Shown in pieces: positions 1 through 16,839 of a stretch of DNA of 64,000 nt. Position numbers and translations under genes: made by a program. The notes beneath the pieces are model-generated. The model was not told the origin of the DNA, did not search any database, and saw only the letters and a program-made list of their open reading frames with translations. How positions within the stretch are numbered: the stretch's first letter is position 1; every line of letters begins with the position of its first letter. The DNA comes from Spirochaetia bacterium. GTDB lineage: Bacteria > Spirochaetota > Spirochaetia > WTKD01 > G963693115. The stretch spans positions 98,206 through 162,205 of the forward strand of contig OZ245332.1 in the NCBI GenBank assembly GCA_965226065.1, given 5' to 3'.

Positions 1-308
1 TGCATCGACTGTCGCTATACTAGTATCGCTTGATTTATAGGTAATAGCACCTGTGTCGTCTGCTACTTCCTTTGTTTTGCGTATCTCTTGTTTATAAGAT
101 GATGTTTCAGTAATTGATGCTTTATCGCTTTTTTTAGCAAAGCTAATGGTTGTGCCTTGAATAAGTTGAGTCTTTGTGGTCTCACCTTCTACGGTATTAC
201 TTGAAGCTTTGGATGTTTTTTCTGATTTGGGACTATCGCAGGCTGCGATAAGGAAGTTTAATAAAAGGAATATATATATATATATATATATAGGTTCTTG
301 TATATCAT
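1..308 (-). CDS. BspA-like (DUF285/LRR-type) surface lipoprotein, N-terminal part only; gene runs off the left edge of the window. The upstream ATG is currently out of frame across a (TA)11 tract
   Basis: Minus-strand translation of 1..270 reads FLLLNFLIAACDSPKSEKTSKASSNTVEGETTKTQLIQGTTISFAKKSDKASITETSSYKQEIRKTKEVADDTGAITYKSSDTSIATVDA. This gives a lipobox (LIAAC) and an N-domain like the 18585..19640 product (CDSPKSKKT..., YTSSNKAIATVDNAG). An AAGGAG RBS (complement of 315..320) and ATG (complement of 306..308) lie upstream, but that frame reads MIYKNLYIYIYIYIYSFY-stop through (TA)11 at 271..292. Confidence 0.5.
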
Positions 309-575
309 GGATTACTCCTTATATAAGTAAAGTTTCTATAAGCTTAAAGGCTTACTATATATATAATAGACACTTTTGATATATTTTCAAGAGCTTTGCT
401 GTCAGTTCGCATACTCCTATATAGTAGTATTTTGATAAAACATGGTGTGTAATATAGCAAAAAGCATGACAGAAAGATATAATAAAAACAATTACTTCAT
501 AATATGTTTCTTTCAATATCATTTAAGATTCTTAAGAAGAAGTAAGCATGATCTACGTATTTTAGAGGTTTTTAT

Positions 576-926
576 ATGGCAGAAGATAATACAAACAATC
601 TCATATCTCATAAAAGCGAAGTTTCAACAAGAAGTCAATTAGCGACTTTTTTGTTATGTACCTTCCTTGGATTTTTCGGTGCACATAGGTTGTATGCAGG
701 TAAGATAGGCTCAGGTATTACAATGATGCTCTTGATAATTGTTTTTGTACCGCTATTATTATTTTCTACAGATGCGGTGCAATCACAAGATGAAGCTTCT
801 TTTGGAGCTCTATTATCTTTAGCCGCAGGTGCTGTTGTAGTTCTTTGGATTATTATTGATTGGTTTGTAATACTTACAGGTAATTTTAAGGATAACGAAG
901 GGAAGAGAATACAAAAATTATTGTAA
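576..926 (+). CDS. TM2-domain membrane protein
   Basis: 116 aa with two hydrophobic helices and a GAHRLYAGK motif typical of the TM2 (G-x-H-R-F/L-Y) domain. Confidence 0.65.
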   Translation: MAEDNTNNLISHKSEVSTRSQLATFLLCTFLGFFGAHRLYAGKIGSGITMMLLIIVFVPLLLFSTDAVQSQDEASFGALLSLAAGAVVVLWIIIDWFVILTGNFKDNEGKRIQKLL

Positions 927-929
927 TAC

Positions 930-1145
930 ATGAACATTGAAGCATCACTAAACACCAATTTTCACAAAGCGAAAAGTAACAAAAAAGACGAATTCTACAC
1001 GCAACTTTACGACATTGAAGAAGAGCTTAAACACTACAAGGAGCATTTCAAAGGCAAGGTCGTGTACTGCAACTGCGGAGTCATGGGCGTACCGATTACC
1101 TTTCTCGACAAGTACAACCCCGACCAGTTTGAGTTGTTGGGATAG
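930..1145 (+). pseudogene. N-terminal fragment of an EcoRI-like N6-adenine DNA methyltransferase (truncated remnant)
   Basis: The 71-aa ORF reads HKAKSNKKDEFYTQLYDIEEELKHYKEHFKGKVVYCNCG. From memory this resembles the N-terminus of M.EcoRI-family adenine methylases (HKAKK..DEFYTQ...VYCNCD). The ORF stops after ~70 aa, where a full enzyme is >300 aa. Confidence 0.4.
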
Positions 1146-1262
1146 ATAGACCTTTGATTAAAGAACGCACAGGAAAAGTTAGTCGCTTTAGGATTAATGA
1201 TAAGGAAATCTACGCAAGAATCATCATCAAGAACAAGAGACTCTCTTCTTAGGAGGCACAAC

Positions 1263-3812
1263 ATGAGCCAAGACACCATACAATTTCACCTTAGAAGAGC
1301 AGGGCGTTATTACAAAGAAGGCAAATACGAAAAGGCGATAAAAACGCTTACATTGATTATCAATTCAGACGCACCAGATGACATCAAGGCAGATGTATAC
1401 AACAACAGAGGACTTGCCAAATACGACTTACAGAGGTACGAGGAAGCGATAGAGGATTATGACAAGGCGATAGAACTACAGTCCGACCATGTTGAGACAT
1501 ACAACAACTTCACCAAGCTTGATCGCAAAGATCCCGCCGAACTACAGCTCAACTATGCAAATGCATACAACAACAGAGGCGCTGCCAAAGAAAAATTACA
1601 GAGATACGAAGAGGCGATAGAAGATTACGACAAGGCGATAAAACTACAGCCCAACCATGCCGCAGCATATAACAACAGAGGCAGTGCCAAAGGAGAATTA
1701 CAGAGATACGAGGAAGCGATAGAAGATTACGACAAGGCGATAAAACGAAAGCATGACTATGCAGATGCATACTACAACAGAGGCAATGCCAAAGGAAAAT
1801 TACAGAGACACGAGGAAGCGATAGAAGATTACGACAAAGCGATAGAGCTACAGCTTGACCATGTTGAGGCATACTACAATAGAGGCAGTGCCAAAGGAAA
1901 ATTACAGAGATACGAGGAAGCGATAGAGGATTACGACAAGGCGATAAAATTACAGCCCAACCATGCCGCAGCATATAACAACAGAGGCAATGCCAAAAAC
2001 AGCTTACAGAGATACGAGGAAGCGATAGAGGATTATGACAAGGCGATAGAAAGACAGCCCAACCTTGCAGATGCATATAGCAACAGAGGCGCTACCAAAG
2101 ACAAATTACAGAGATACGAAGAAGCGATAGAGGATTACGACAAGGCGATAGAAAGACAGCCCGACTATGCCGAGGCATGGTACAACTGTATAAAAAATGC
2201 TACAAAAGAGTTAGAAGAAAGACAGCCCGACTATGCCGAGGCATGGTACAACAGAGGCAATGCCAAACGTAGCTTGGGGAGGTACGAAGAGGCGATAGCG
2301 GACTACGACAAGGCGATAGAACGAAAGCATGACTATGCAGATGCATACAACAATAGAGGCGCTACCAAAGACAAATTACAGAGATACGAGGAAGCGATAG
2401 AAGATTACGACAAGGCGATAGAACGAAAGCATGACTATGCAGATGCATACAACAACAGAGGACTTGCCAAAGCCAAATTACAGAGATACGAAGAGGTGAT
2501 AGAAGATTATGATAAGGCGATAGAACTACAGCCCGAAGATGCCAATGCATGGTTCAACAGAGGCAATGCCAAAAACAACTTACAGAGATACGAGGAAGCG
2601 ATAGCGGATTACGACAAGGCGATAGAGTTACAGCCTAAGCTTGCCGAGGCATACAACAACAGAGGCGTTGCCAAATACGACTTACAGAGGTACGAAGAAG
2701 CGATAGAAGATTACGACAAGGCGATAGAGCTACAATCCGACCATGCAGGTGCATACCGCAACAGAGGCAATGCCAAATACGACTTACAGAGATACGAAGA
2801 GGCGATAGCGGATTACGACAAGGCGATAGAGCTACAACCCGACCATGCAGGGGCATACTACAACAGAGGCGTTGCCAAAGCCAAATTACAGAGATATGAA
2901 GAGGCGATAGCGGATTACGACAAGGCGATAGAGCTACAGCCTAATCTTGCCAATGCATGGTTCAATAGAGGCAATGCCAAAGGCAGCTTACAGAGACACG
3001 AAGAGGCGATAGCGGATTTTGACACAGCGATAGAATTACAGCCCGACTATGCTAAGGTATACCACAACAGAGGCGTTGCCAAACATAGCTTGGGGAGATA
3101 CGAGGAAGCGATAAGGGATTACTACAAGGCGATAGAGCTACAGTGTGAGAACGCAAAGAAAGACTTTAAAACAATAACATGCTATAAGTTCATCCCCATT
3201 AGCAAAAACAGCATAAACATGCTGGTAAAAAACATGGTGTATTTTAGCGATGTTCCGTCCCTGAACGACCCGCTGGAATGCCCTCTTTTGTTAACAATAT
3301 TTCAGGGCGTATTTGAAGGCAAACATGAACCGCGTATTTTCTCACTCGTGGTTCCACCTCCCAATGACAAACCAGATGAGTATGGGATACATGAGGTCGT
3401 ACGCAACACACTCCTTTTCAGCCACTATGCAGATGCGCACAAGGGAATATGCATAGGGTACGAAATAGCTCCAGAGTTTCTGCAACAAGGCACGATGTTC
3501 TATACACCTGTGCAATATAGCAAGAATACAATACCAGATAGCCTGGAGAAGCTCTTTGCCATTAAGGATGAGCTATGGAAATATGAGCATGAGGGGCGTT
3601 TTGTAGCCTTTGGCACAGAGAAACACTATCAATTGCAAGGGAATTCACGCATTACAAGGCTTATCTTTGGGCTTAAAACACCTGGAAAAGACAAGACTTT
3701 GTTGTCGAAACTTCTACAAGGTAAAGGAATAGGCTTATATGATACCTACAGTGATGAATATAGTTCTTTTGATCTCAAGTTTAAGGTTCGCAAACAATCT
3801 CATATCTCATAA
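1263..3812 (+). CDS. TPR-repeat protein with C-terminal DUF2971 domain (paralog 1, roughly 18-19 TPR units)
   Basis: AGGAGG RBS 7 nt upstream of ATG 1263; the ORF-track start at 1197 is probably too early. The N-terminus MSQDTIQFHLRRAGRYYKEGKYEKAIKTL is homologous to MTQGIE..NRATRYRKEGKYEEAI of paralogs 2 and 3. Long array of 34-aa units (AYNNRGNAKxxLQRYEEAIEDYDKAIELQP). The C-terminal ~230 aa carry DUF2971 hallmarks: LVKNMVYFSDVPSLNDPLECPL, LLFSHYADAHKGICIGYEI and LWKYEHEGRFVAF. The last codons (KQSHIS) derive from a copy of the TM2 gene 5' end. Confidence 0.85.
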   Translation: MSQDTIQFHLRRAGRYYKEGKYEKAIKTLTLIINSDAPDDIKADVYNNRGLAKYDLQRYEEAIEDYDKAIELQSDHVETYNNFTKLDRKDPAELQLNYANAYNNRGAAKEKLQRYEEAIEDYDKAIKLQPNHAAAYNNRGSAKGELQRYEEAIEDYDKAIKRKHDYADAYYNRGNAKGKLQRHEEAIEDYDKAIELQLDHVEAYYNRGSAKGKLQRYEEAIEDYDKAIKLQPNHAAAYNNRGNAKNSLQRYEEAIEDYDKAIERQPNLADAYSNRGATKDKLQRYEEAIEDYDKAIERQPDYAEAWYNCIKNATKELEERQPDYAEAWYNRGNAKRSLGRYEEAIADYDKAIERKHDYADAYNNRGATKDKLQRYEEAIEDYDKAIERKHDYADAYNNRGLAKAKLQRYEEVIEDYDKAIELQPEDANAWFNRGNAKNNLQRYEEAIADYDKAIELQPKLAEAYNNRGVAKYDLQRYEEAIEDYDKAIELQSDHAGAYRNRGNAKYDLQRYEEAIADYDKAIELQPDHAGAYYNRGVAKAKLQRYEEAIADYDKAIELQPNLANAWFNRGNAKGSLQRHEEAIADFDTAIELQPDYAKVYHNRGVAKHSLGRYEEAIRDYYKAIELQCENAKKDFKTITCYKFIPISKNSINMLVKNMVYFSDVPSLNDPLECPLLLTIFQGVFEGKHEPRIFSLVVPPPNDKPDEYGIHEVVRNTLLFSHYADAHKGICIGYEIAPEFLQQGTMFYTPVQYSKNTIPDSLEKLFAIKDELWKYEHEGRFVAFGTEKHYQLQGNSRITRLIFGLKTPGKDKTLLSKLLQGKGIGLYDTYSDEYSSFDLKFKVRKQSHIS

Positions 3813-3972
3813 AAGCGAAGTTTCAACAAGAAGTCAATTAGCGATTTTTTCGGTGCACATAGGTTGTATGCAGGTAAGATAGGCTCAAGTATTATAATGA
3901 TACTCTTAATAATTGTTGCAGCAGGGTTTTATACCGCTATCATTATTTTTTACAGATGCGGTGCAATCAGAT
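3796..3972 (+). repeat. Degenerate second copy of the 5' part of the TM2 gene (matches 597..790), fused to the 3' end of TPR-DUF2971 paralog 1
   Basis: 3796..3846 is identical to 597..647 (caatctcatatctcataaaagcgaagtttcaacaagaagtcaattagcga). The rest matches 660..790 with a ~20-bp deletion and point differences. Confidence 0.7.
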
Positions 3973-3997
3973 GCATAAACAAGAAGATACAGAAAGA

Positions 3998-4030
3998 TGA
4001 AAAAAGCCACACAAACATGTGGCTTTGAGT
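3998..4030 (-). terminator. Rho-independent terminator downstream of the minus-strand Mrr-like gene
   Basis: Stem agccaca (4005..4011), loop caaaca, stem tgtggct (4018..4024). On the minus strand the stem is followed by TTTTTTCATC (complement of 3998..4004). Confidence 0.5.
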
Positions 4031-4074
4031 TTAAAGAATTTTCACAGCTCCTTAAGCGGATATTTCAAATGTCG

Positions 4075-5004
4075 TTAAAAAAGTAATTCAGGAGCGTGAT
4101 TTATGACAAATAGCGCCAAATCTTCATGAGCTAATAAATCAATAGGCTTTCCAAACTCATCAGATTTTTCATCAATCTCTTTTTCTATCGTCTCTGTGCT
4201 TTCGGCAGTGGTAGCTATTATTCCTCCATGTGCATCGTAATGCTCTATTGCGCCTACAATCTGTTCGACTGCATGTGTATTCTCTATTCTTCCTTCATAA
4301 GATTTTACTTGCACAACGATCAAATGTGGATATTCTATATTATTCGCTATTTTGATGTTCGTCTCTATAATTAGATCTGCCCCATGATCCGTACCCCAGC
4401 CTACTTCATTAAGTGTTACATCTTTTACATCGGGAACTTTTTTAAATACCTTATATAAAAATTCCTCAAGGTTTTTACTCTTATTCATTTGTTGAATCTT
4501 TACAGCGATATTGCTTAGCATGGGGGTCAGTTCTTTTTTGAGATGATGTATTTCTCTCGTCTCTCCGCCTTCAAGTTGTATCTTATTACTTTTTAAGTTC
4601 TCTATAGATTCATGAAATGCGTCTTCCGCACGTATTCTTTGAAATCTTTGTCGAGGTTTCAGATTAACTGTGGGTAGAACATTTGCATTCTTTCTATCAA
4701 ACTCTATCACCGTACTGGTATCAACTTCAAAGTAATGCGGAAAGGCACTAGTTTTCTCTCCAAATTTATATTCTGACGTAATTCTCGCAGCGGTACAGTG
4801 TCCTTTCCGTGGTGAATTGATAAACACGATCCAATCATCTTTATGTACTTGACGAAGACGTTCAAAATATTGATATGGTTCTTTTGGGATTCCTTCCTCC
4901 CCAGCATGTATTCGTACTGTTCCTTCATGCATCCAATCTTTGATTTGTTCTCTAATTTCGTCCTTGCATCCTTTCCATGATGCCCCAACTGACCATACTG
5001 CCAT
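4075..5004 (-). CDS. Restriction endonuclease-like protein with C-terminal Mrr-cat (PD-(D/E)xK) domain and an N-terminal domain of unknown type
   Basis: The C-terminal GWGTDHGADLIIETN....HLIVVQVKSYEG fits the Mrr catalytic-core pattern (DGGIDG...D..I...IQAK). The ~130-aa N-terminal region was not recognised. Confidence 0.5.
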   Translation of the reverse strand: MAVWSVGASWKGCKDEIREQIKDWMHEGTVRIHAGEEGIPKEPYQYFERLRQVHKDDWIVFINSPRKGHCTAARITSEYKFGEKTSAFPHYFEVDTSTVIEFDRKNANVLPTVNLKPRQRFQRIRAEDAFHESIENLKSNKIQLEGGETREIHHLKKELTPMLSNIAVKIQQMNKSKNLEEFLYKVFKKVPDVKDVTLNEVGWGTDHGADLIIETNIKIANNIEYPHLIVVQVKSYEGRIENTHAVEQIVGAIEHYDAHGGIIATTAESTETIEKEIDEKSDEFGKPIDLLAHEDLALFVINHAPELLF

Positions 5005-5253
5005 AATTCTTACCTCCTACATATAACATATATAAATTATTTGGAAATCAATTTTCAACAAAGGGTTAAATCTAAAATCCATACCATGCACTATAGCAAA
5101 ACCTAGCGTCTTATGCAAGTACACAAGGTCTAATATCCCTTTACTTAATACATAATGTCATAGATACATTGTGTCGACACTTGAGATACGCTCACAAGTT
5201 TTCTCGGGACATGTAGCGTCCTACAACAGAGACATGTATATGATCACGCAAGA

Positions 5254-6501
5254 TTACATTGTATCTCGCGTGGCTCCGAAACTCAGCAAGTACTCACGAT
5301 AGTACTCGTACTGTGCTCTGCGTGCCTTAAGTTCTGCAGGCAAGCCGATGCTTATGTCGTTCACTAAGGCGTCAAACTTGTCTAAAAGAGACACAATGCG
5401 TTCTTGCACAGGTAGGGGAGGTATGGGGATGGTGAGTTTAGCAACATCTTTTGAATAAACATGAGGAACTCCGCTTCCGCTTTTAAGATTGTGTAATACA
5501 TTTTGACAGTTTTTTAAAAAATGAAAAGCATATTTTGTAAGCAATAAACATTTATTTGTTTTTATTGAAAAGGCATCTGATACAAAAATTTCGGTCGTCC
5601 AATAACTAACAAAACCCGCATACGCACCGCTTCCCGCAATTACAATTGTTTCGCCATCTCTATTTCCTTTGTTATGATAATAGGCCGCTTTTCTGCCACC
5701 TGCAATAACAGGGATGTCACCACTTGAAATATTTTTTTTAGTTATGGATGTTCCTCGCTTAAGTTCCGCAACTTCTCCCAACGCCCTCCACTCCACGTCA
5801 TCGCCAAAGGTGAGAAGCTTCTCACGGTAGTGCTTATACTGCGCTACGCGCGCCTCAAGCTCCGCCTCAAGCTCCGCCTCAAGCTCCGCCTCAAGCTCCG
5901 CCTCAAGCTCCGCCTCAAGCTCCGCCTCAAGCTCCGTGAATGTGTCTAGCACGCCTACAATGTACTCTTGCACAGGTAGGGGTGGTATGGGGATTAGATA
6001 TTTTTTTATATCGTTAAAATTAACTGATGAAAATGTTGCACCAGAAGCTTTACTGGCAAGTACTTGTCCATGTATTTGCATAATATGAAAAAGATATTTG
6101 CTTATAACTTTTTTAGTAGCTTGTATTCCACATAAACCTCTGCCTATACAAATTTTTCTATCAGTATAATTTATTGCCCCTACAGGTGCTCGAACACTCA
6201 TTATTACGTTATGAGCTTCTATAATTTTTGTTATTTTAGAAGTATGCTTTTGAGAGTTAGCAACAACATAGTTAGTAAAATGGGATTTTCCTTGATGAAA
6301 TTCTAAATCATTTTTGTTTGATGAAACAAACTTACCTTCTGGAGATTGTCCCATTATAAGATTAAAGTAATTTATATCCCCCAGCGCTCTATACTCCACC
6401 CCGTGCGGGCAGTGCTCGGCCATCAGCCGTTCCAGCGTATTCATAGTGCACTCATGATGGTTCGCCAATAATCCCGCATAGTCCCATGATATCATGCACA
6501 T
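5254..6501 (-). CDS. hsdS: Type I restriction-modification specificity subunit HsdS (copy 1; TRD-A + TRD-B), with 7 tandem ELEA repeats in the central spacer
   Basis: Two-TRD architecture. Conserved central and C-terminal segments: IPIPPLPVQE...LD.FTELEA...RVAQYKHYREKLLTF and IPIPPLPVQERIVSLLDKFDALVNDISIGLPAELKARRAQYEYYREYLLSF. Seven 12-bp units (cctcaagctccg) at 5853..5936 encode (ELEA)7. No hsdM or hsdR in the window. The start may really be at the MNTL... methionine rather than MCMIS.... Confidence 0.85.
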   Translation of the reverse strand: MCMISWDYAGLLANHHECTMNTLERLMAEHCPHGVEYRALGDINYFNLIMGQSPEGKFVSSNKNDLEFHQGKSHFTNYVVANSQKHTSKITKIIEAHNVIMSVRAPVGAINYTDRKICIGRGLCGIQATKKVISKYLFHIMQIHGQVLASKASGATFSSVNFNDIKKYLIPIPPLPVQEYIVGVLDTFTELEAELEAELEAELEAELEAELEAELEARVAQYKHYREKLLTFGDDVEWRALGEVAELKRGTSITKKNISSGDIPVIAGGRKAAYYHNKGNRDGETIVIAGSGAYAGFVSYWTTEIFVSDAFSIKTNKCLLLTKYAFHFLKNCQNVLHNLKSGSGVPHVYSKDVAKLTIPIPPLPVQERIVSLLDKFDALVNDISIGLPAELKARRAQYEYYREYLLSFGATRDTM

Positions 6502-6708
6502 GTGTTGGAAGAGACATAGACATGTGTTGAATTGTACACTATTTATATATAACTCCCTTAATGTATCACAATGGTCTTAAATGAATTCCTGCATATTTAA
6601 TAATTTGAGGTTTACAAATGGATTTACATGTATCACGGCAACCTGTCTTTGACCTTTTAAAGTACATTCATCGGTCTATGGGCTATACTCAAACGTAAGG
6701 AGCATCGC
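6502..6708. promoter_or_regulatory. Conserved divergent intergenic leader between hsdS and the TPR-DUF2971 gene (copy 1 of a ~185-bp near-identical element; copy 2 at 13408..13592; partial third copy 15870..15911)
   Basis: 6540..6708 is near-identical to 13420..13592. It ends in ...ggctatactcaaac(g/a)taaggagcatcgcATG, a TATACT -10-like hexamer followed by an AAGGAG RBS. It presumably holds divergent promoters for both genes. Confidence 0.45.
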
Positions 6709-8661
6709 ATGACTCAAGGCATAGAATTGAACTTCAATAGAGCGACACGATATCGCAAAGAAGGCAAATATGAAGAGGCGATAGAAACGCTTACATTGAT
6801 TATCAAATCAGACGCACCAGATGACATCAAGGCAGGTGCATACTACAATAGAGGCGTTGCCAAACACGACTTAGAGAGATACGAGGAAGCGATAAGGGAT
6901 TACGACAAGGCGATAGAGCTACAGCCTAAGCTTGCCGAGGCATACAACAACAGAGGACTTGCCAAACACGACTTAGAGAGATACGAGGAAGCGATAGCGG
7001 ATTACGACAAGGCGATAGAACTACAGCCTAAGTTTACCGAGGCATGGTACAACAGAGGACTTGCCAAATACGCCTTACAGAGGTACGAGGAAGCGATAGC
7101 GGATTACGACAAGGCGATAGAACTACAGCCTAAGCTTGCCGGGGCATACAACAACAGAGGACTTGCCAAACACGACTTAGAGAGATACGAGGAAGCGATA
7201 GCGGATTACGACAAGGCGATAGAGCTACAGCCTAAGCTTGCCGAGGCATACAACAACAGAGGCAATGCCAAACGTAGCTTGGGGAGATACGAGGAAGCGA
7301 TAAGGGATTTCGACAAGGCGATAGAGCTACAGCCCGACTATGCTAAGGCATACAACAACAGAGGACTTGCCAAACACGACTTAGAGAGATACGAGGAAGC
7401 GATAGCGGATTACGACAAGGCGATAGAACTACAGCCTAAGCTTACCGAGGCATGGTACAACAGAGGACTTGCCAAATACGCCTTACAGAGGTACGAGGAA
7501 GCGATAGCGGATTACGACAAGGCGATAGAACTACAGCCTAAGCTTGCCGGGGCATACAACAACAGAGGACTTGCCAAACACGACTTAGAGAGATACGAGG
7601 AAGCGATAGCGGATTACGACAAGGCGATAGAGCTACAGCCTAAGCTTGCCGAGGCATACAACAACAGAGGCAATGCCAAACGTAGCTTGGGGAGATACGA
7701 GGAAGCGATAAGGGATTTCGACAAGGCGATAGAGCTACAGCCCGACTATGCTAAGGCATACAACAACAGAGGACTTGCCAAACACGACTTAGAGAGATAC
7801 GAGGAAGCGATAGCGGATTACGACAAGGCGATAGAGCTACAGCCTAAGCTTGCCGAGGCATACTACAATAGAGGCAATGCCAAATACAAATTAAAAAGAT
7901 ATGAAGAGGCGAAAGACGACCATCATCAGGCAATTAAGCTGCAATGTGAGAATGCACAAGAAAAATATAAGCCCATAACAAGCTATAAGTTCAGACCCAT
8001 CAATAAAAACACCATAAGCCTTTTGGTACAAGGTGAATTATATTTTAGCGATATTCCATCCCTGAACGACCCGCTGGAATGCCCCCTGATGCACTTCATG
8101 TATAAAGATATATTCAAAGATGCCAATAAGCCGCACATTTTGTCACTGGTTGTCCCCTCTCATCAACATACAAAAAACAAAGACGGAATATATACGGATC
8201 TGGTAAACAACACCTTGCTCTTCAGCCATTATGCTGATTCACACAAGGGCATATGCATAGAATACGAAATACAAGAAACACTATTAAAACAAGAACAAGC
8301 ACGCATATTCTACACCTCTGTACAATACAGCACAAACACAGAAGCACAAAATATTGAAAAACTCTTTGCCATTAAGGATGAAAAATGGAAATACGAGAAC
8401 GAAGCGCGCTTTATAGCCTTTGATGAGCAACAAGAGCCAACACGCCCGGGCAACATATATAAAGGTGGTGTGCACATTAAGAAAATAATATTCGGACTTG
8501 AAACGCCTAAGGAAGACAAAAAGCTATTGTACACCCTCTTGCACAAAGAAAACAAAGAACATTTACAAGGCATAAAGTTTTTTAACACAGAAAGCAAACC
8601 CAAAAGCTTTTTCACCCTGAAGTTTACGCCGTATACACCGCCAGACCAGGTTGGTTCATAA
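6709..8661 (+). CDS. TPR-repeat protein with C-terminal DUF2971 domain (paralog 2, roughly 11-12 TPR units; contains a perfect ~408-bp 4-TPR tandem duplication)
   Basis: Same unit structure as paralog 1. The C-terminal domain reads LLVQGELYFSDIPSLNDPLECPL, LLFSHYADSHKGICIEYEI and KWKYENEARFIAF. The 6937..7344 segment is repeated at 7345..7752 almost base for base. Confidence 0.85.
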   Translation: MTQGIELNFNRATRYRKEGKYEEAIETLTLIIKSDAPDDIKAGAYYNRGVAKHDLERYEEAIRDYDKAIELQPKLAEAYNNRGLAKHDLERYEEAIADYDKAIELQPKFTEAWYNRGLAKYALQRYEEAIADYDKAIELQPKLAGAYNNRGLAKHDLERYEEAIADYDKAIELQPKLAEAYNNRGNAKRSLGRYEEAIRDFDKAIELQPDYAKAYNNRGLAKHDLERYEEAIADYDKAIELQPKLTEAWYNRGLAKYALQRYEEAIADYDKAIELQPKLAGAYNNRGLAKHDLERYEEAIADYDKAIELQPKLAEAYNNRGNAKRSLGRYEEAIRDFDKAIELQPDYAKAYNNRGLAKHDLERYEEAIADYDKAIELQPKLAEAYYNRGNAKYKLKRYEEAKDDHHQAIKLQCENAQEKYKPITSYKFRPINKNTISLLVQGELYFSDIPSLNDPLECPLMHFMYKDIFKDANKPHILSLVVPSHQHTKNKDGIYTDLVNNTLLFSHYADSHKGICIEYEIQETLLKQEQARIFYTSVQYSTNTEAQNIEKLFAIKDEKWKYENEARFIAFDEQQEPTRPGNIYKGGVHIKKIIFGLETPKEDKKLLYTLLHKENKEHLQGIKFFNTESKPKSFFTLKFTPYTPPDQVGS

Positions 8662-8860
8662 ACTCTACATGTGTTAAAAGAGACACGGAGCGATGCCAAC
8701 AGAGAGACGGAAACGCCCCCCACCCGACATGTCCATGTCTTTGGTATCTCTGGTAGCCATCAAAACCTGACTTTACACAAAAAAACCCCTGATGACTTGA
8801 TTATGTAAAAGGCCGTGTTATGATAACATTCAGTAACATTTAATCAACAAGGAGTAAACC

Positions 8861-9776
8861 ATGATGATATATAAGAAAGCAATAGCCCTTCTGTCCCTTC
8901 TTTTGACCTTAATTATCGCAGCATGCGAAAACCCCCAACCAACATAGAGAAAAACGGTAAAGCCGACACGGATACAGACTCCGAAGGAGAATCTGCAGGC
9001 GAAACAGGCAACGAATCCGAAGACGATGGCGAAGACGCAGCCCCCGCCGCATATAGTTTTGCATTTGACACGGCAGCCACAAGGTTGCATTCACCTCAGG
9101 TGGCACATACACCCGTGCCGTCGTCGAGACAAACAAGCCCGCAGGCGACGCACGGGCTACTACATATACCTCAAGCGAGGGCAAGATAGCCACGGTCAAC
9201 GAAGCAGGTGTCGTAACCTTTGTGACCCAGGGCACGGTGACCATCACGGCCACCAAGACAGCGGAACCTGGCCATGAAAAAGCTACTGCCAGCTATGAAC
9301 TTACCATTACCAAAATGAAGCCCGCAAATAAACAGGCACTTGCCAATGAAATAACCCGAGCGATGGATGCACACGGCAACAAAGTCAACCTCAACTACAT
9401 AGACGTCTCTGATATCACCGACATGAGCTATCTTTTTAGTAGCCATGCATTCGGTTATGGGCGTCAGGCATTCAATGGCGACATATCAGAGTGGAAGGTG
9501 GCAAAGGTGACCAATATGTTCGCTACGTTTGAAGGTGCTACTGCGTTCGATCAGAATATCTCAAAGTGGGATGTGTCAGGGGTTGAAGATATGGTTTTTA
9601 TGTTTAAGGATGCAACCTCGTTCAAGCAGAACCTCAATGCATGGGGGAACAGAATAAACAACGCTTTAAAAGCTGATAAATGGAGAAATACAAAAATTAT
9701 GTTTACAGGCAGCGGTCTTGCGGACAATCTCCCTTCATGGTGTGCAAGTGTGCAAGCGTGTAGAAATGGACAATAA
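8861..9776 (+). pseudogene. BspA-like (DUF285) surface lipoprotein gene disrupted by two frameshifts
   Basis: AAGGAG RBS then MMIYKKAIALLSLLLTLIIAACENPQPT-stop. The frame continues in +1 after a C5 tract (8932..8936) as ...AAYSFAFDTAATR. A second shift occurs near 9075..9085 into the 9222..9776 frame (VAFTSGGTYTRAVVETNKPAGD...TYTSSEGKIATVNEAGVVTFV...). That frame aligns with the 18585..19640 protein and carries DUF285 units (NLNYIDVSDITDMSYLF..., ISKWDVSGVEDMVFMF). Confidence 0.6.
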
Positions 9777-9787
9777 AGGAGGAACAC

Positions 9788-9915
9788 ATGGCTATAGAAT
9801 ATAAAGTCATTCCACGCAAGATATTGGCGGGAGAAGACAAAGGCAAAGTAAAATACTACGCCACAACAAGCAACACCGGACGAACAGACCTTGATGACTT
9901 TATAAATATTATTCA
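9788..9915 (+). pseudogene. Possible truncated HU-like (Bacteroidetes-type histone-like) DNA-binding protein N-terminus
   Basis: AAGGAGG RBS, then MAIEYKVIPRKILAGEDKGKVKYYATTSNTGRTDLDDFINI resembles the N-terminus of Bacteroides-type HU-family proteins. The rest of the ORF overlaps the opposite-strand ImmA gene and looks non-coding. Confidence 0.25.
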
Positions 9916-10398
9916 GATTCCAAGTCGTATAGACATTGCTCCAAATGAAACATCGAATTCATTTGCTAAAATATGGGCAAGTTCTGCATGGAATCCCAGG
10001 TCAAAACATTCTATATAATGGTTGGCTCTCTCTTTAACCTTGTGAAGGGGCATTATTATATCAGCTGCCAGCTTATTAGCTTGAATTTCCTGATTGTTGC
10101 TTAGCAAGCTTCTGTATAATGGATCGTCAAATATCCCATCTCCTATGCTTTCCTTATGCAAGAAAAAATGGGCAAGCTCATGGGCTAGTGTAAATCTCCT
10201 CCGTTGAGGGGAATGCTTTAAATTTATAGTAATTCGGTAATTGTCGTTTACCTTCACTATCTTGCCAGACATCTCTCCCATATATTCATTTTCAACATCA
10301 ATATTATTATCCTTTGCAATACTTTCAAGATTAACAGGGTAGGAGTCAAGATATTTTTCTTTCAAACTTTTTGCGATATCCAGTCTATTGCTGTCCAT
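9913..10398 (-). CDS. ImmA/IrrE-family (DUF955) zinc metallopeptidase
   Basis: HExxH in LAHELAHFFLH, plus the downstream LAAD.IMP context typical of ImmA/IrrE anti-repressor proteases. Confidence 0.7.
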   Translation of the reverse strand: MDSNRLDIAKSLKEKYLDSYPVNLESIAKDNNIDVENEYMGEMSGKIVKVNDNYRITINLKHSPQRRRFTLAHELAHFFLHKESIGDGIFDDPLYRSLLSNNQEIQANKLAADIIMPLHKVKERANHYIECFDLGFHAELAHILANEFDVSFGAMSIRLGI

Positions 10399-10401
10399 TT
10401 G

Positions 10402-10845
10402 TCACTCCTTATTCACTTTTTTAGCATCATCAACATCAGAAGTACTTAATGCGTAAATATCGCCCGCCTTCATTCTTTCGTTTGTCTTTTTCATTACTTC
10501 CTCTACTATGGAATCTGTTTTATTTTTAATAAAGTCATCAGCTTTCCTATTTATGATTTCAGTTACTTTTGAATTTATTTCTTGCCAACCGATGATAGCC
10601 AGGATTCCGCCACCCATTGTTATGGTCGCTATAATTATTCCCAGTAAAGATATTTGAAAACTTAAAGCGTCAACATTACTGAGGTTTTCTGAATTCGCAA
10701 ACTTGAAAAACCCAAATACAATAAGTAGCAAGAAAAAAGCTCCAATCACAACAAGAAAAAATGTTAAAATGAGTATTAAAACTCCAGATTTTGGTTTACC
10801 TTCAGCTTTTTTGACTTTTTCTTTATTCCCCGGAGAACCAACCAC
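10402..10845 (-). CDS. Small membrane protein (2 predicted TM helices), co-directional and 3 nt upstream of the ImmA-like gene
   Basis: Two long hydrophobic stretches (VLILILTFFLVVIGAFFLLLIVFGFF and LLGIIIATITMGGGILAIIGW). No HTH motif recognised. Confidence 0.45.
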   Translation of the reverse strand: MVGSPGNKEKVKKAEGKPKSGVLILILTFFLVVIGAFFLLLIVFGFFKFANSENLSNVDALSFQISLLGIIIATITMGGGILAIIGWQEINSKVTEIINRKADDFIKNKTDSIVEEVMKKTNERMKAGDIYALSTSDVDDAKKVNKE

Positions 10846-10904
10846 TTATCTATTATGACACAGGTATCTAAATATAACAACAATATGCTGTATAAAATCT
10901 TTTT

Positions 10905-11394
10905 CCTCCATGAACCGCGTATTTTCTCACTCGTGGTTCCACCTCCCAATGACAAACCAGATGAGCATGGGATACATGAGGTCGTACGCAACACACTTCT
11001 TTTCAGCCACTATGCAGATGCGCACAAGGGAATATGCATAGGGTACGAAATAGCTCCAGAGTTTCTGCAACAAGGCACGATGTTCTATACACCTGTGCAA
11101 TATAGCAAGAATACAAGACCAGATAGCCTGGAGAAGCTCTTTGCCATTAAGGATGAGCTATGGAAATATGAGCATGAGGGGCGTTTTGTAGCCTTTGGCA
11201 CAGAGAAACACTATCAATTGCAAGGGAATTCACGCATTACAAGGCTTATCTTTGGGCTTAAAACACCTGAGGAAGACAAGACTTTGTTGTCGAAACTTCT
11301 ACAAGGCAAAGGAATAGACTTATATGATACCTACAGTGATGAATATAGTTCTTTTGATCTCAAGTTTAGGGAACACGGGGCAACATCTTTTTGA
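10905..11394 (+). pseudogene. Truncated copy of the DUF2971 C-terminal domain (about 97% identical to residues of paralog 1; no TPR region and no N-terminal NDPxE segment)
   Basis: 10911..11375 encodes EPRIFSLVVPPPNDKPDEHGIHEVVRNTLLFSHYADAHKGICIGYEI...LWKYEHEGRFVAF.... This is near-identical to 3334..3790, but with a different 3' end and unrelated upstream codons. Confidence 0.7.
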
Positions 11395-11502
11395 CAAAGG
11401 CTTTGCAGGCAATTGGTTTGAGCCCCACCAATGGGCCTATGGTAGACGATGAACATTTATTCTATGCAGCTTGGACTCTTAGTATCTTGATCACGCCCTA
11501 GC

Positions 11503-11847
11503 TTAGTCTTTCCAACTGTACAGCGTCCCATCATCGCGTATCGCCACTGTGTGATCCCCACATGTCGCAACAGCATTCCATTTTTCGATCCCTACTTTGA
11601 CGGGACTAGTCTGATGCTTCATATGCCATAGTGTCCCATCATCGCGTATCGCCACTGTGTGATCCCCACCTGCCGCAACAGCCTTCCATCTTCCGATCCC
11701 TACCATGTTGGGACTAGTCTGATAATTACGCCCTTTCCAAATACACAGCGTCCCATCATCGCGTATTGCCACTGTGTGATCCCTACCTATCGCAACAGCC
11801 TTCCATCTTCCGATCCCTACCTTGTCGGGACTAGTCTGATAATTCAT
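11503..11847 (-). pseudogene. RCC1-repeat (beta-propeller blade) protein fragment
   Basis: Three near-identical blades: GIGRWKAVA.G.DHTVAIRDDGTL..WK (RCC1-like GxxHTVAL..DGxLxxWG). Only 114 aa with no upstream continuation, so likely a remnant. Confidence 0.45.
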
Positions 11848-12180
11848 ATGCCATCTCCTTTATAAAATAAAATTTGTGAAAGCTGCTTAATATACAAGCA
11901 ACATTTTCAATTATATAAAGTATAGAAAACAAAACACAATAATACAATAGGTAAAATTAAAATGTGATGCAAGCTTGTCCAAGAACCCCATTCCTAAGCT
12001 TCTGCCTACCATACGGAGATGCCCTTATCAGCATACCGTTCTAAGCAATACGCAATATGCCTTTGAACTTTAGGGCACAAGTCCAAGAAGTTTACTAAAT
12101 AAATTTTTAGAGACACCTAGTGATAGCCAACAGCGACACATAGCGTCCTACAACAGAGACATGTATATGATCACGCAAGA

Positions 12181-13407
12181 TTACATTGTATTTCGCGTGG
12201 CTTCGAAACTAAGCAAGTACTCACGATAGTACTCGTACTGTGCTCTGCGTGCCTTAAGTTCTGCAGGCAAGCCGATGCTTATGTCGTTCACTAAGGCGTC
12301 AAACTTGTCTAAAAGAGACACAATGCGTTCTTGCTCTGCAAGGGGCGGTATGGGGATAGAAAACTTATTTATTATTGAAGAATTTATATTATTGATAGTA
12401 GTGCTACAGATACTTTTTTTAAGATATTGCAAGAAATTACCGCTACCTAACAAATAAAAAATAAATTGAGAATTAATACTTTTATTACATCTTATAACTG
12501 CCATAAAGCCACCAAAGTAGTAATCTATATTGTTATTAATATATGCAACTTTTCCTACATGGGCTTTACTTCCACTTGCTACGCTCATAAGAATATCACC
12601 TTTTTTTAACTTTTGCGTATCTTTAATTTTGGTATCTTTAGACACAACTTTAACATCTTCAAAGTTTAATCTATTATTTAATATGTCAATATTATTCGCT
12701 CTTAATATTTTGAAACCACTGTTTAAAGTTGTTTCCTGCGATTTATTGTAAGTAACCCCTCGCACATATTTAGCAATTTCTCCTAATTCTCTATATTCCA
12801 CGTCATGGCCAAAGGTGAGCAGCTTCTCACGGTAGTACTTATACTGCGCTACGCGCGCCTCAAGCTCCGCCTCAAGCTCCGTAAAGCTGTCGAGTATCTT
12901 TACGATTGCTTCTTGCACAGGTAGGGGTGGTATGGGTATGGGCAGTTTGGCAACATCTTTTGAATAAACATGAGGAACTCCGCTTCCGCTTTTAAGATTG
13001 TGTAATACATTTTGACAGTTTTTTAAAAAATGAAAAGCATATTTTGTAAGCAATAAATATTTATTTGTTTTTATTGAAAAGGCATCTGATACAAAAATTT
13101 CGGTCGTCCAATAACTAACAAAACCCGCATACGCACCGCTTCCCGCAATTACAATTGTTTCGCCATCTCTATTTCCTTTGTTATGATAATAGGCCGCTTT
13201 TCTGCCACCTGCAATAACAGGGATGTCACCACTTGAAATATTTTTTTTAGTTATGGATGTTCCCCGCTTAAGTTCCGCAACTTCTCCCAATTCTCTATAC
13301 TCCACCCCGTGCGGGCAGTGCTCGGACATCAGCCGTTTCAGCGTATTCATAGTGCACTCATGATGGTTCGCCAATAATCCCGCATAGTCCCATGATATCA
13401 TGCACAT
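12181..13407 (-). CDS. hsdS: Type I R-M specificity subunit HsdS (copy 2; TRD-B + TRD-C), 2 ELEA repeats in the central spacer
   Basis: Identical N- and C-terminal conserved regions to copy 1. Its first TRD (GEVAELKRGTSITKKNISSGDIPVIAGG...AKLPIPIPPLPVQE) is the same sequence that forms the second TRD of copy 1; its second TRD is unique. Only two cctcaagctccg units are present. Confidence 0.85.
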   Translation of the reverse strand: MCMISWDYAGLLANHHECTMNTLKRLMSEHCPHGVEYRELGEVAELKRGTSITKKNISSGDIPVIAGGRKAAYYHNKGNRDGETIVIAGSGAYAGFVSYWTTEIFVSDAFSIKTNKYLLLTKYAFHFLKNCQNVLHNLKSGSGVPHVYSKDVAKLPIPIPPLPVQEAIVKILDSFTELEAELEARVAQYKYYREKLLTFGHDVEYRELGEIAKYVRGVTYNKSQETTLNSGFKILRANNIDILNNRLNFEDVKVVSKDTKIKDTQKLKKGDILMSVASGSKAHVGKVAYINNNIDYYFGGFMAVIRCNKSINSQFIFYLLGSGNFLQYLKKSICSTTINNINSSIINKFSIPIPPLAEQERIVSLLDKFDALVNDISIGLPAELKARRAQYEYYREYLLSFEATRNTM

Positions 13408-13592
13408 GTGTTGAATTGTACACTATTTATATATGATTCCCTTAATGTATCACAATGGTCTTAAATGAATTCCTGCATATTTAATAATTTGAGGTTTACA
13501 AATGGATTTACATGTATCACGGCAACCTGTCTTTGACCTTTTAAAGTACATTCATCGGTCTATGGGCTATACTCAAACATAAGGAGCATCGC
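13408..13592. promoter_or_regulatory. Second copy of the conserved hsdS/TPR divergent leader
   Basis: Near-identical to 6540..6708. Confidence 0.45.
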
Positions 13593-15512: not shown

Positions 15513-15911
15513 GTAGGAAATCCCGTACCCATATGCATTACCACAGACACAAGAATCACACAGAAGACTTGTTATACTTGTTACAAAGGAAGTGCTCATG
15601 AAACAACAAGCAAACCCGAAAGCCTTTTTACCCTAAAGTTCAGGCCAGGTTCGTTCAAAAAAAAAGTTCTAATTATTAGCATCAGTGTCGGAAGACATGA
15701 GCTATCTCTTTTATAACACCACTGTATCTACCTTTGGGGGATGTTTGAATTCTCTTTGGCAAGACCTGCGAATCACTTAAAAAGAATATGCATGTCTCTT
15801 TGGGATTTATACGATCGTTTCGTGTACCTTTGTGTCATAGAGGCATGACGCCTCAGCCTTGTTTAGCTATTCATCGGTTTATCGGCTATACTCAAACGTA
15901 AGGAGCATCAC

Positions 15912-16163
15912 ATGACTCAAGGCATAGAATCGTACTTCAATAGAGCGACACGATATTACAAAGAAGGCAAGTATGAAGAGGCGATAGCGAATTATGACAA
16001 AGCGATAGAACTACAGCCCGAAGATGCCGATGCATGGTTCAACAAAGGAACAAACAGCATTATGATTATGATAGAACGACAAAGCATGGGGAAACCGAAG
16101 GTGCGTCTTTGTTATTGTATTTATCAAAATAGTCAAGAAATAAGCAGTATAGAATATTTATAA
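15912..16163 (+). pseudogene. N-terminal fragment (leader + first TPR) of a fourth TPR-DUF2971 family gene
   Basis: MTQGIESYFNRATRYYKEGKYEEAIANYDKAIELQPEDADAWFNKG, then unrelated sequence and a stop. It is preceded by a partial copy of the conserved leader (15870..15911). Confidence 0.55.
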
Positions 16164-16183
16164 GGTTAAGAAGTAATGGAATT

Positions 16184-16816: not shown

Positions 16817-16839
16817 AATGAGAAGAAAGACATCACAGA

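What the first reader, a model, noticed from the sequence alone, without database searches (positions are those of the whole stretch)
5853..5936. In-frame 12-bp tandem array (cctcaagctccg)x7 encoding (ELEA)7 in the central spacer of hsdS copy 1, versus x2 in copy 2
The central conserved coiled-coil region of type I S subunits sets the distance between the two TRDs. In EcoR124I and EcoR124II, two versus three copies of a 4-aa repeat (TAEL) change the spacer of the bipartite recognition site by 1 bp. Here the same kind of 4-aa (one helical turn) repeat is present 7 times in hsdS-1 and twice in hsdS-2 (12865..12888). A perfect 12-bp tandem array is prone to slipped-strand copy-number change without frameshift. 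Copy number is therefore a likely tuning knob of target-site spacer length. Seven copies would imply an unusually long non-specific spacer.
Basis: partly seen in the sequence, partly recalled or inferred. Interest (0 to 1): 0.6.

Follow-up and report, generated by a model that had tools for sequence, protein, structure and literature searches.

The report
Expanded 4-residue repeat in hsdS
A restriction-enzyme specificity gene carries seven perfect copies of a 12-base repeat in the helix that spaces its two DNA-reading domains; this is a real but already well-described kind of hypervariable "ruler", here in an unusually long state and in a gene with no partner genes nearby.

Summary
It encodes (ELEA)7 versus (ELEA)2 in the central helix of two intact paralogous hsdS genes.

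Both genes are Type IC-like (EcoR124 family). A tetra-amino-acid tandem repeat at exactly this position is the hallmark of that family. Published work shows one repeat unit equals 1 bp of spacer in EcoR124I/II and NgoAV. It also shows 1-33 copies varying between strains and passages in Mycoplasma pneumoniae. The finding is therefore a new member of a known kind.

My census found mostly 2-4 units. Five to eleven units occur sporadically in unrelated lineages, and most of those arrays are DNA-perfect, so young. Seven is a rare tail, not unprecedented.

"Seven means a very long spacer" is untested extrapolation (about N10). The partner helix has a fixed length. The AlphaFold model of the 7-unit protein loses the canonical geometry (TM 0.39 versus 0.69 to EcoR124 HsdS). 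An out-of-range, inactive or relaxed state is at least as likely.

No hsdM or hsdR lies in the 64 kb window. Only one genome of this spirochaete lineage exists, so strain variation could not be tested.

The parts
5853..5936 (-). Perfect 12-bp x7 tandem array (CCTCAAGCTCCG on the plus strand; GAG CTT GAG GCG = ELEA on the coding strand). It encodes residues 171-198 of HsdS-1. In codon register it spans 5851-5934.
5254..6444 (-). hsdS-1 coding sequence, 396 aa from the ATG at 6444 (the longest ORF extends to 6501). Two Methylase_S target recognition domains (TRDs) and Type IC-like conserved regions.
5797..5990 (-). Central conserved region of hsdS-1 (PIPPLPVQEYIVGVLDTFT-(ELEA)7-RVAQYKHYREKLLTFG). 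It is predicted as one continuous 55-residue helix (residues 156-210). GC is 59% against 38% for the window.
5991..6380 (-). TRD-A, the N-terminal target recognition domain of hsdS-1. It is unique in the window and has 29% GC.
5401..5796 (-). TRD-B in position 2 of hsdS-1. It is 97% identical in DNA (about 96% in protein, 5 differences in 129 residues) to TRD position 1 of hsdS-2.
5254..5400 (-). Distal (C-terminal) conserved region of hsdS-1, with a fixed 17-aa linker DALVNDISIGLPAELKA. This is the partner helix of the repeat-bearing helix.
12181..13350 (-). hsdS-2 coding sequence, 389 aa from MNTLKRL. It is identical to database protein P0001 from MISWDY. Domain order is TRD-B, central conserved region with 2 units, then TRD-C.
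12858..12881 (-). The same 12-bp unit x2 in hsdS-2.
12910..13305 (-). TRD-B copy in position 1 of hsdS-2.
6445..6708 (.). Upstream and intergenic region shared with hsdS-2 (13351-13592), 96-99% identical apart from a 22-bp indel. It is divergent from a TPR gene. No consensus promoter was called.

Best explanation
hsdS-1 is an intact Type IC-like (EcoR124 family) Type I specificity gene. Its hallmark tetra-amino-acid repeat (ELEA, 12-bp unit) has recently expanded to seven units, by slipped-strand mispairing or unequal crossing-over.

Each unit adds about one helical turn (4 residues) to the first of the two antiparallel helices that hold the two target recognition domains (TRDs) apart. Unit number is therefore a frameshift-free, hypermutable determinant of TRD spacing. 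Within the tested range it changes the non-specific spacer by 1 bp per unit.

Shown here:
- the array, its reading frame and its position in the helix;
- membership of the family by sequence and fold;
- the recent origin of the array, from its perfect DNA identity;
- family-wide length polymorphism of 2-11 units;
- purifying selection on both paralogues.

Inferred:
- the mechanism of length change;
- the effect on specificity.

For the present 7-unit allele I judge three outcomes. An out-of-range state, with an inactive or relaxed-specificity S subunit that could revert by contraction, is about 55% likely. A precise enzyme with a spacer of about N10 is about 25% likely. About 20% is that the gene is not used at all.
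For: - The array is perfect, in frame and inside an intact ORF.
- Both proteins have two Methylase_S domains.
- The conserved regions align with EcoR124 HsdS 7bst_A at E=3e-33, and the distal conserved region is about 70% identical.
- The 120 best homologues carry TAEL, LEAE or ELTS repeats at the same site, with central linkers of 9, 13 or 17 aa only.
- A degenerate DNA pattern for at least 4 units hit at least 120 species genomes, and every hit was an HsdS central conserved region. Unit counts were 4 (106 hits), 5 (7), 6 (4) and 11 (1, in Haemophilus haemolyticus inside an hsdM-hsdS operon).
- The pattern for at least 7 units hit 13 metagenome contigs with 7-10 units, across GC contents of 31-54%.
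- 61% of arrays with at least 3 identical amino-acid units are also DNA-identical, which implies continuing homogenisation or turnover.
- In the window the unit is identical in all 9 copies, while the flanking conserved region differs by 10% between the paralogues.
- Shared segments show dN/dS of 0.2-0.55. Pooled, there are 15 nonsynonymous and 16 synonymous changes against 77% nonsynonymous expected, P=4e-4.
- AlphaFold models the repeat as part of one continuous helix, residues 156-210.
- Literature: EcoR124I/II TAEL x2 versus x3 gives N6 versus N7 (PMC3874165). NgoAV LEAT x1 versus x2 gives N6 versus N7 by methylome (PMC6789123; bioRxiv 10.64898/2026.01.10.698759). M. pneumoniae has a 12-bp repeat of 1-33 copies that varies between strains and passages (PMC4537597).
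- For the out-of-range reading: the distal linker is 17 aa in all 86 measured proteins, whatever the array length. The 7-unit model has pTM 0.51 and TM 0.39 (rmsd 21 A) to 7bst_A. The 2-unit paralogue has pTM 0.68 and TM 0.69 (rmsd 5 A) to the same chain.
Against: - There is no population or strain data. Only one genome of this lineage is in the databases, so instability of this particular array is inferred, not seen.
- No hsdM or hsdR lies in the window, and no consensus promoter was called. Expression and assembly into an enzyme are unknown.
- The structural argument rests on AlphaFold models with moderate inter-domain confidence and a 41-sequence alignment.
- Long arrays (6-11 units) also occur in full-length hsdS genes next to hsdM in other organisms. 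Long arrays may therefore be tolerated or even functional.
- The effect of more than 3-4 units on specificity has not been measured in any paper I could read.
Confidence: 0.75

Rival explanations
1. The 7-unit allele encodes a fully active S subunit that recognises a bipartite site with an unusually long spacer. Linear extrapolation gives about N10, with the two methylated adenines about 11 bp apart.
For: - One unit equals 1 bp in EcoR124I/II and in NgoAV (PMC3874165; PMC6789123).
- The repeat is modelled as a continuous helix.
- The ORF is intact and under purifying selection.
- Full-length hsdS genes with 6-11 units sit next to hsdM in other lineages, for example L047, L121 and L115.
Against: - The partner helix does not lengthen; its linker is always 17 aa. 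That leaves a 12-residue mismatch.
- The 7-unit model loses the canonical geometry of the two target recognition domains, with TM 0.39 against 0.69 for the 2-unit paralogue.
- Arrays longer than 4 units are rare: none among 120 unbiased homologues.
- Most of those longer arrays are DNA-perfect, so they are transient rather than maintained.
- The characterised Type I enzymes listed in PMC3874165 have methylation intervals of 6-9.
Confidence: 0.25
2. The array is a neutral variable-number repeat in a solitary hsdS gene that is not used, because it is silent or has no compatible HsdM. Copy number then has no phenotypic consequence.
For: - No hsdM or hsdR lies within 64 kb, whereas 97 of 120 related loci have hsdM within 8 kb.
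- No consensus promoter or terminator was called.
- The region is a mosaic of duplicated and degraded genes, including a truncated EcoRI-type methylase, an RCC1 fragment and a DUF2971 fragment.
- In M. pneumoniae ten hsdS genes coexist with a single detected Type I motif (PMC4537597).
Against: - Both ORFs are intact, with conserved regions strongly similar to functional Type IC S subunits.
- dN/dS is well below 1 in the shared segments (P=4e-4).
- The upstream region is conserved at 96-99% between the copies.
- Solitary hsdS genes that use an HsdM encoded elsewhere are documented (PMC4537597).
Confidence: 0.2
3. The seven copies are an assembly or sequencing artefact.
For: - hsdS-1 is absent from the protein collection that does hold hsdS-2 and the trigger factor of the same 1.85-Mb contig. 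This is unexplained.
- Repeats can be miscounted by assemblers.
Against: - The array is only 84 bp, shorter than ordinary reads.
- It is perfectly in frame and flanked by unique sequence.
- Equally long perfect arrays occur at the same site in 14 independent assemblies.
Confidence: 0.03

Closest known systems
EcoR124I / EcoR124II (and EcoDXXI, EcoprrI), Type IC HsdS with TAEL repeats
   Same: - The same protein family by conserved-region sequence and by fold.
- The same position for a 12-bp / 4-aa in-frame tandem repeat in the first inter-domain helix.
- Unit number changes the spacer from N6 to N7 (PMC3874165).
   Different: - The unit here is ELEA rather than TAEL.
- There are 7 perfect units (29-aa linker) against 13 or 17 aa in the E. 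coli enzymes.
- The paralogue's 9-aa linker is shorter than in EcoR124I.
- The genes are chromosomal and solitary, with no hsdM or hsdR in 64 kb.
- The host is a deep-branching spirochaete.
Mycoplasma pneumoniae hsdS 12-bp variable-number repeat (AELS/TELS)
   Same: - Multiple hsdS paralogues dispersed in the genome.
- A 12-bp repeat encoding 4 aa in the first helix.
- Very different copy numbers between paralogues.
- Long arrays, 1-33 copies, that change between strains and passages.
- The same interpretation has already been published (PMC4537597; PMC8836594).
   Different: - A different phylum and a different unit sequence.
- Here only two paralogues are visible, and no strain series exists.
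Neisseria gonorrhoeae NgoAV (LEAT repeats)
   Same: A Type IC HsdS in which natural copy-number polymorphism of a tetra-amino-acid repeat shifts the methylated motif from N6 to N7 (PMC6789123; bioRxiv 10.64898/2026.01.10.698759).
   Different: - NgoAV varies between only 1 and 2 units.
- It lies in an operon.
- It also switches by a homopolymer frameshift.
Domain movement (DoMo) of target recognition domains (TRDs) in Helicobacter pylori hsdS (Furuta et al. 2011, cited in PMC6158711)
   Same: The same TRD sequence is found at position 2 in one hsdS and at position 1 in another. TRD-B is 97% identical in DNA between the two.
   Different: Here the event is seen between two paralogues of one genome rather than between strains. 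The mechanism was not examined.
Inverting hsdS shufflons (S. pneumoniae SpnD39III/ivr, M. pulmonis hsd)
   Same: Several hsdS copies share conserved regions that could recombine.
   Different: - Both genes are on the same strand.
- No inverted repeats of at least 40 nt occur in 1-17 kb.
- No recombinase was seen among neighbouring ORFs.

Membership tests
HsdS, Type I R-M specificity subunit (Pfam PF01420 Methylase_S) | Two target recognition domains that match Methylase_S | tested here: met
   hsdS-1 scores 7e-45 with 2 matched stretches; hsdS-2 scores 1e-52 with 2 matched stretches.
HsdS, Type I R-M specificity subunit (Pfam PF01420 Methylase_S) | Two long helices (central and distal conserved regions) joining the TRDs; fold match to solved S subunits | tested here: met
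   AlphaFold helices span 156-210 and 344-387 in hsdS-1, and 143-177 and 337-379 in hsdS-2. Foldseek E-values are 1e-13 to 1e-21 against 1ydx, 1yf2, 5ybb and 7bst. Global TM is 0.69 for hsdS-2 but only 0.39 for hsdS-1.
Complete Type I R-M system (hsdR, hsdM, hsdS) | hsdM and hsdR encoded with or near hsdS | tested here: not met
   No N6_Mtase, HsdM_N or ResIII domain was found among the ORFs scanned. tblastn of 545 ORFs from 120 related loci, and of an HsdM, against the window gave no significant hit. Sequence outside the window is unknown.
Type IC family (EcoR124I, EcoDXXI, EcoprrI, NgoAV) | Tetra-amino-acid tandem repeat in the central conserved region | tested here: met
   (ELEA)7 and (ELEA)2 lie between LDxFT and RxxQY. 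The hallmark is described in PMC10030836, citing Adamczyk-Poplawska 2003, and in PMC3874165.
Type IC family (EcoR124I, EcoDXXI, EcoprrI, NgoAV) | Conserved regions similar in sequence to EcoR124 HsdS | tested here: met
   phmmer against 7bst_A gives E=3.1e-33. The distal region EQERIVSLLDKFDALVNDISIGLPAELKARRAQYEYYREYLLSF aligns with [44 protein letters not shown].
Type IC family (EcoR124I, EcoDXXI, EcoprrI, NgoAV) | Family-level identity or complementation of HsdM and HsdR | not testable with these tools
   No hsdM or hsdR is available from this genome.
Repeat-length-variable hsdS (EcoR124I/II, NgoAV, M. pneumoniae) | Perfect in-frame tandem DNA repeat whose copy number differs between alleles or paralogues | tested here: met
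   7 versus 2 identical units in two paralogues. 2-11 units were found across the family.
Repeat-length-variable hsdS (EcoR124I/II, NgoAV, M. pneumoniae) | Copy number varies within a population or between strains of the same species | not testable with these tools
   Only one genome of the lineage is in the databases; the next relatives share 76% and 71% trigger-factor identity. No reads are available.
Repeat-length-variable hsdS (EcoR124I/II, NgoAV, M. pneumoniae) | Copy number changes the spacer of the recognised sequence | not testable with these tools
   This needs a methylome or biochemistry. There is only model-level evidence that the geometry differs.
Invertible hsdS shufflon (ivr / hsd loci) | Inverted hsdS segments plus a site-specific recombinase | tested here: not met
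   Both genes lie on the minus strand. There are 0 inverted repeats of at least 40 nt in 1-17000. The neighbours are Mrr_cat, TPR, DUF285 and M78 peptidase genes.

The most novel reading that the evidence does not exclude
The 7-unit allele may be functional, giving a Type I methyltransferase or restriction enzyme with a spacer of about N10, beyond the characterised range. Alternatively, array length may act as a frameshift-free, reversible on/off gate. In that case only lengths compatible with the fixed 17-aa partner helix would give an active enzyme, and a solitary hsdS would toggle in and out of use by a distant HsdM/HsdR.
Probability: 0.2. Interest if true: 0.5.

Novelty: new member of a known kind. 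Interest (0 to 1): 0.3.

Why it matters
If the array changes length in the population, this organism can alter, or switch off, one of its Type I methylation and restriction specificities without a frameshift. That would affect phage defence, DNA uptake and possibly epigenetic regulation. The principle has been textbook knowledge since 1989 and has been documented at population level in Neisseria and Mycoplasma.

The added value is modest and comes in three parts:
1. A further example, in a poorly sampled spirochaete lineage.
2. An allele far outside the lengths whose effect has been measured.
3. A family-wide picture: the partner helix is fixed at 17 aa, the common states are 2-4 units, and young expansions to 7-11 units occur sporadically. 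This frames a testable question about how far the "ruler" can be stretched.

Tried and rejected
1. An exact 34-mer spanning the flank plus two units found nothing in genome contigs. The source genome seems not to be searchable there.
2. The look-up of encoding contigs for hsdS-2 (P0001) and for hsdS-1 gave no record. An exact-sequence look-up shows hsdS-2 is in the protein collection, but hsdS-1 is not under any of three start codons. The genomic context outside the window, and hence any hsdM, could not be retrieved.
3. A protein search with a chimeric query made only of conserved regions returned only half-size or partial HsdS of 250 aa or less. It gave no close relatives and no organism, so that search was largely wasted.
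4. Gubler & Bickle 1991, Youell & Firman 2008 and Adamczyk-Poplawska 2011 are not held in the library. The published effect of adding repeats beyond three could therefore not be read. My recollection is that extra repeats gave relaxed, "promiscuous" spacer recognition, but this is unverified.
5. The shufflon or inversion idea was rejected: the genes are on the same strand, with no inverted repeats and no recombinase.
6. The idea that the repeat belongs to a plus-strand gene or a regulatory element was rejected: there is no plus-strand ORF, and the array is in frame in a conserved helix.
7. The promoter and terminator scan was uninformative: 2 promoter-like sites against 5.4 expected, and none upstream of hsdS-1.

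Full report
**Observation**

- Tandem Repeats Finder gives 5851-5936, period 12, 7.2 copies, 100% matches, score 172. It gives a second array at 12856-12881 with 2.2 copies.
- The unit CCTCAAGCTCCG occurs seven times back to back at 5853-5936 and twice at 12858-12881. It occurs nowhere else in 64 kb, even with one mismatch. Chance expectation is 0.05 matches.
- The chance of such a perfect period-12 tract arising at random is about 1e-38.

**What carries it**

- The array lies in the minus-strand ORF 5254-6501. By comparison with homologues the real start is the ATG at 6444 (MNTLERLMAEHCPHGVEYRALG...).
- On the coding strand the unit reads GAG CTT GAG GCG. The protein therefore reads ...VLDTFT-(ELEA)7-RVAQYKHYREKLLTFG....
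- The paralogue at 12181-13350 reads ...ILDSFT-(ELEA)2-RVAQYKYYREKLLTFG....
- Both proteins have two Methylase_S domains and hit solved HsdS structures. The strongest hit is the EcoR124 S subunit (7bst_A, E=3e-33). Its distal conserved region aligns almost residue for residue with the window's.
- The 120 best database homologues are EcoR124-like S subunits with TAEL, LEAE or ELTS repeats at the same place.
- These are therefore Type IC-like hsdS genes, and the repeat is that family's hallmark tetra-amino-acid repeat (PMC10030836, PMC3874165).

**Anatomy of the pair**

- A self-comparison shows a modular relationship.
- hsdS-1 is N-terminal conserved region, TRD-A, central region (7 units), TRD-B, C-terminal conserved region.
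- hsdS-2 is N-terminal conserved region, TRD-B, central region (2 units), TRD-C, C-terminal conserved region.
- TRD-B is 97% identical in DNA and occupies position 2 in one gene and position 1 in the other.
- The 5' ends, the upstream intergenic DNA and the start of a divergent TPR gene are duplicated at 92-99% identity, apart from a 22-bp indel.
- Conserved regions are GC-rich (45-63%). The target recognition domains (TRDs) are AT-rich (29-38%).
- Shared segments have dN/dS of 0.2-0.55. Pooled, there are 15 nonsynonymous and 16 synonymous changes where 77% nonsynonymous would be expected (P=4e-4). Both genes have therefore been evolving as protein-coding genes.
- All nine copies of the unit are identical, although the flanking central region differs by 10% between the paralogues. 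The array is thus younger than the duplication, or is continually homogenised.

**Context**

- No hsdM or hsdR is present in the 64 kb window. Pfam scans of the large ORFs found none.
- tblastn of 545 ORFs taken from 120 related hsdS loci, and of a verified HsdM, found only the two hsdS genes.
- By contrast, 97 of those 120 loci have hsdM within 8 kb.
- Neighbours include three TPR paralogues, an Mrr-like nuclease, a GmrSD/HNH protein, an M78 peptidase, DUF285 surface-protein genes and a truncated EcoRI-type methylase.
- There are no inverted repeats and no recombinase, so this is not an inverting shufflon.
- The window's trigger factor is 100% identical to a protein on the same 1.85-Mb contig that holds hsdS-2. 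The next relatives are 76% and 71% identical. Named relatives (37-39%) are Spirochaetota MAGs.
- The host is therefore a sparsely sampled spirochaete lineage, and no strain comparison is possible.

**Census of the family**

- I measured the linker between the motifs LDxF and RxxQY.
- In the distal conserved region it is 17 aa in all 86 proteins measured, whatever the central array length.
- In the central region it is 1+4n residues.
- An array-length-unbiased sample (the 120 best homologues) has 13 aa in 98 proteins, 17 aa in 11 and 9 aa in 6, and nothing longer.
Every hit was an HsdS central region. Unit counts were 4 (106 hits), 5 (7), 6 (4) and 11 (1).
- The 11-unit case is Haemophilus haemolyticus M19501. 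It has 10.3 perfect DNA copies and lies in an hsdM-hsdS-abi operon.
- The same pattern with at least seven units hit 13 metagenome contigs. They carry 7-10 units, unit types ELEA, ELTA, ELQS and ELQA, and GC contents of 31-54%. Most (10 of 13) carry at least 7 perfect DNA copies.
- Overall, 61% of arrays with at least three identical amino-acid units are also identical in DNA.
- Of 19 arrays with at least 6 units, seven lie in half-size hsdS ORFs with one TRD. The others are in full-length genes, several next to hsdM.
- Length polymorphism at this site is therefore a general, ongoing property of the family. Seven units is a rare tail (roughly 1% of arrays with at least 4 units), but it is not unprecedented.

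**Literature**

- EcoR124I (TAEL x2, N6) and EcoR124II (x3, N7) are the classic case. The review also notes that it is unclear how a change in one helix but not the other is accommodated (PMC3874165).
- In N. gonorrhoeae, one versus two LEAT units give GACN6TGC versus GACN7TGC in methylomes (PMC6789123; bioRxiv 10.64898/2026.01.10.698759).
- In M. pneumoniae, a 12-bp repeat encoding AELS/TELS occurs in seven of ten dispersed hsdS genes. It ranges from 1 to 33 copies and varies between strains and between passages of one strain. The authors already propose slipped-strand mispairing that alters the methylome (PMC4537597; also PMC8836594).

**Mechanism and the meaning of seven**

- Counting by linker length, EcoR124I has 13 aa (N6) and EcoR124II/EcoDXXI have 17 aa (N7). 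hsdS-2 has 9 aa and hsdS-1 has 29 aa.
- Linear extrapolation gives about N5 and about N10. This is inference only.
- Against a simple ruler at seven units: the partner helix is fixed, leaving a 12-residue (about 18 Å) excess in one helix.
- AlphaFold models the repeat as part of one continuous helix, residues 156-210. The 7-unit model has pTM 0.51 and matches EcoR124 HsdS only at TM 0.39 and rmsd 21 Å.
- The 2-unit paralogue has pTM 0.68 and matches the same chain at TM 0.69 and rmsd 5 Å.
- These are models with moderate inter-domain confidence, so they are suggestive rather than decisive.
- I therefore favour a hypermutable ruler whose present 7-unit state is outside the working range, meaning inactive or relaxed and reversible by contraction.
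- A precise long-spacer enzyme, and an unused gene, are the main alternatives.

**Verdict**

This is a new member of a well-known kind (Type IC tetra-amino-acid repeat length variation). It is notable only for the long array, the solitary genes and the TRD shared in swapped positions. Interest is 0.3.

Noticed in passing
window 5401-5796 and 12910-13305: The same target recognition domain (TRD-B; 97% DNA identity, about 96% in protein) occupies position 2 in hsdS-1 and position 1 in hsdS-2. This is a "domain movement" between paralogues. The two enzymes would share one half-site in opposite orientation.
   Followed up: partly
window 5254-6444 and 12181-13350: The hsdS genes have a compositional mosaic. 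Conserved regions are 45-63% GC (the array is 67%), while the target recognition domains are 29-38% GC, in a 38% GC window. This fits modular exchange of TRDs.
   Followed up: partly
window 930-1145 (+): A 71-aa ORF matches the N-terminal 40 residues plus a second piece of the EcoRI-type adenine methyltransferase family (PF13651, 7.5e-27). It is an internally deleted methylase remnant just upstream of a TPR gene.
   Followed up: partly
window 1197-3812, 6709-8661, 13593-15512 (+); also 15869-15987: - Three large TPR paralogues contain long arrays of 102-bp (34-aa) repeats.
- Two of them are divergently paired with the hsdS genes.
- Their 5' ends and the intergenic DNA are duplicated, and a further copy of that 5' piece lies at 15869-15987.
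- 3324-3786 is 98% identical to 10909-11371 (the TPR C-terminal end / DUF2971 fragment).
- The first 17 kb is a mosaic of recent duplications.
   Followed up: partly
window 6494-6515 versus 13380 region: A 22-bp indel is the only sizeable difference between the two hsdS upstream regions. hsdS-1 has an extra CAACACATGTCTATGTCTCTTC, a local direct duplication of CAACACATGT.
   Followed up: no
window 18585-19640, 20499-21830, 21849-22739 (-): Three adjacent DUF285 (BspA-like) repeat protein genes contain 75-bp tandem arrays. One also carries a Big_2 domain.
   Followed up: no
window 4075-5004 (-), 17495-18580 (+), 9913-10398 (-): Other defence-type genes lie around the hsdS pair: an Mrr_cat nuclease, a GmrSD_N+HNH protein (Type IV-like) and an M78/ImmA peptidase. 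The setting looks like a defence island.
   Followed up: no
window 11503-11847 (-): A short ORF is made of RCC1 repeats encoded by a 117-bp x3 tandem array. It is probably a gene fragment.
   Followed up: no
window 270-292: An (AT)11.5 dinucleotide tract lies in an intergenic region at the left edge of the window.
   Followed up: no
L047 3807-3930 (Haemophilus haemolyticus M19501, NZ_AFQO01000005.1): An hsdS in an hsdM-hsdS-Abi_2 operon carries 10.3 perfect copies of a 12-bp unit (ALTS-(ELTS)9-ELIL). This was the longest array found among the species genomes sampled.
   Followed up: partly
loci L001-L133 (family-wide): - The distal-helix linker of Type IC-like HsdS is 17 aa in all 86 proteins measured.
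- The central linker is 1+4n aa. Four units (17 aa) gives helices of equal length and was by far the commonest state among arrays of at least 4 units.
- Seven of 19 arrays with at least 6 units sit in half-size (one-TRD) hsdS ORFs. There a homodimer would lengthen both helices together.
   Followed up: partly
window 5254-6501: hsdS-1 is absent from the 15-billion-protein collection under three possible start codons. hsdS-2 and the trigger factor from the same 1.85-Mb contig are present. The cause is unknown; it may not have been called, may be annotated as a pseudogene, or may be masked.
   Followed up: partly
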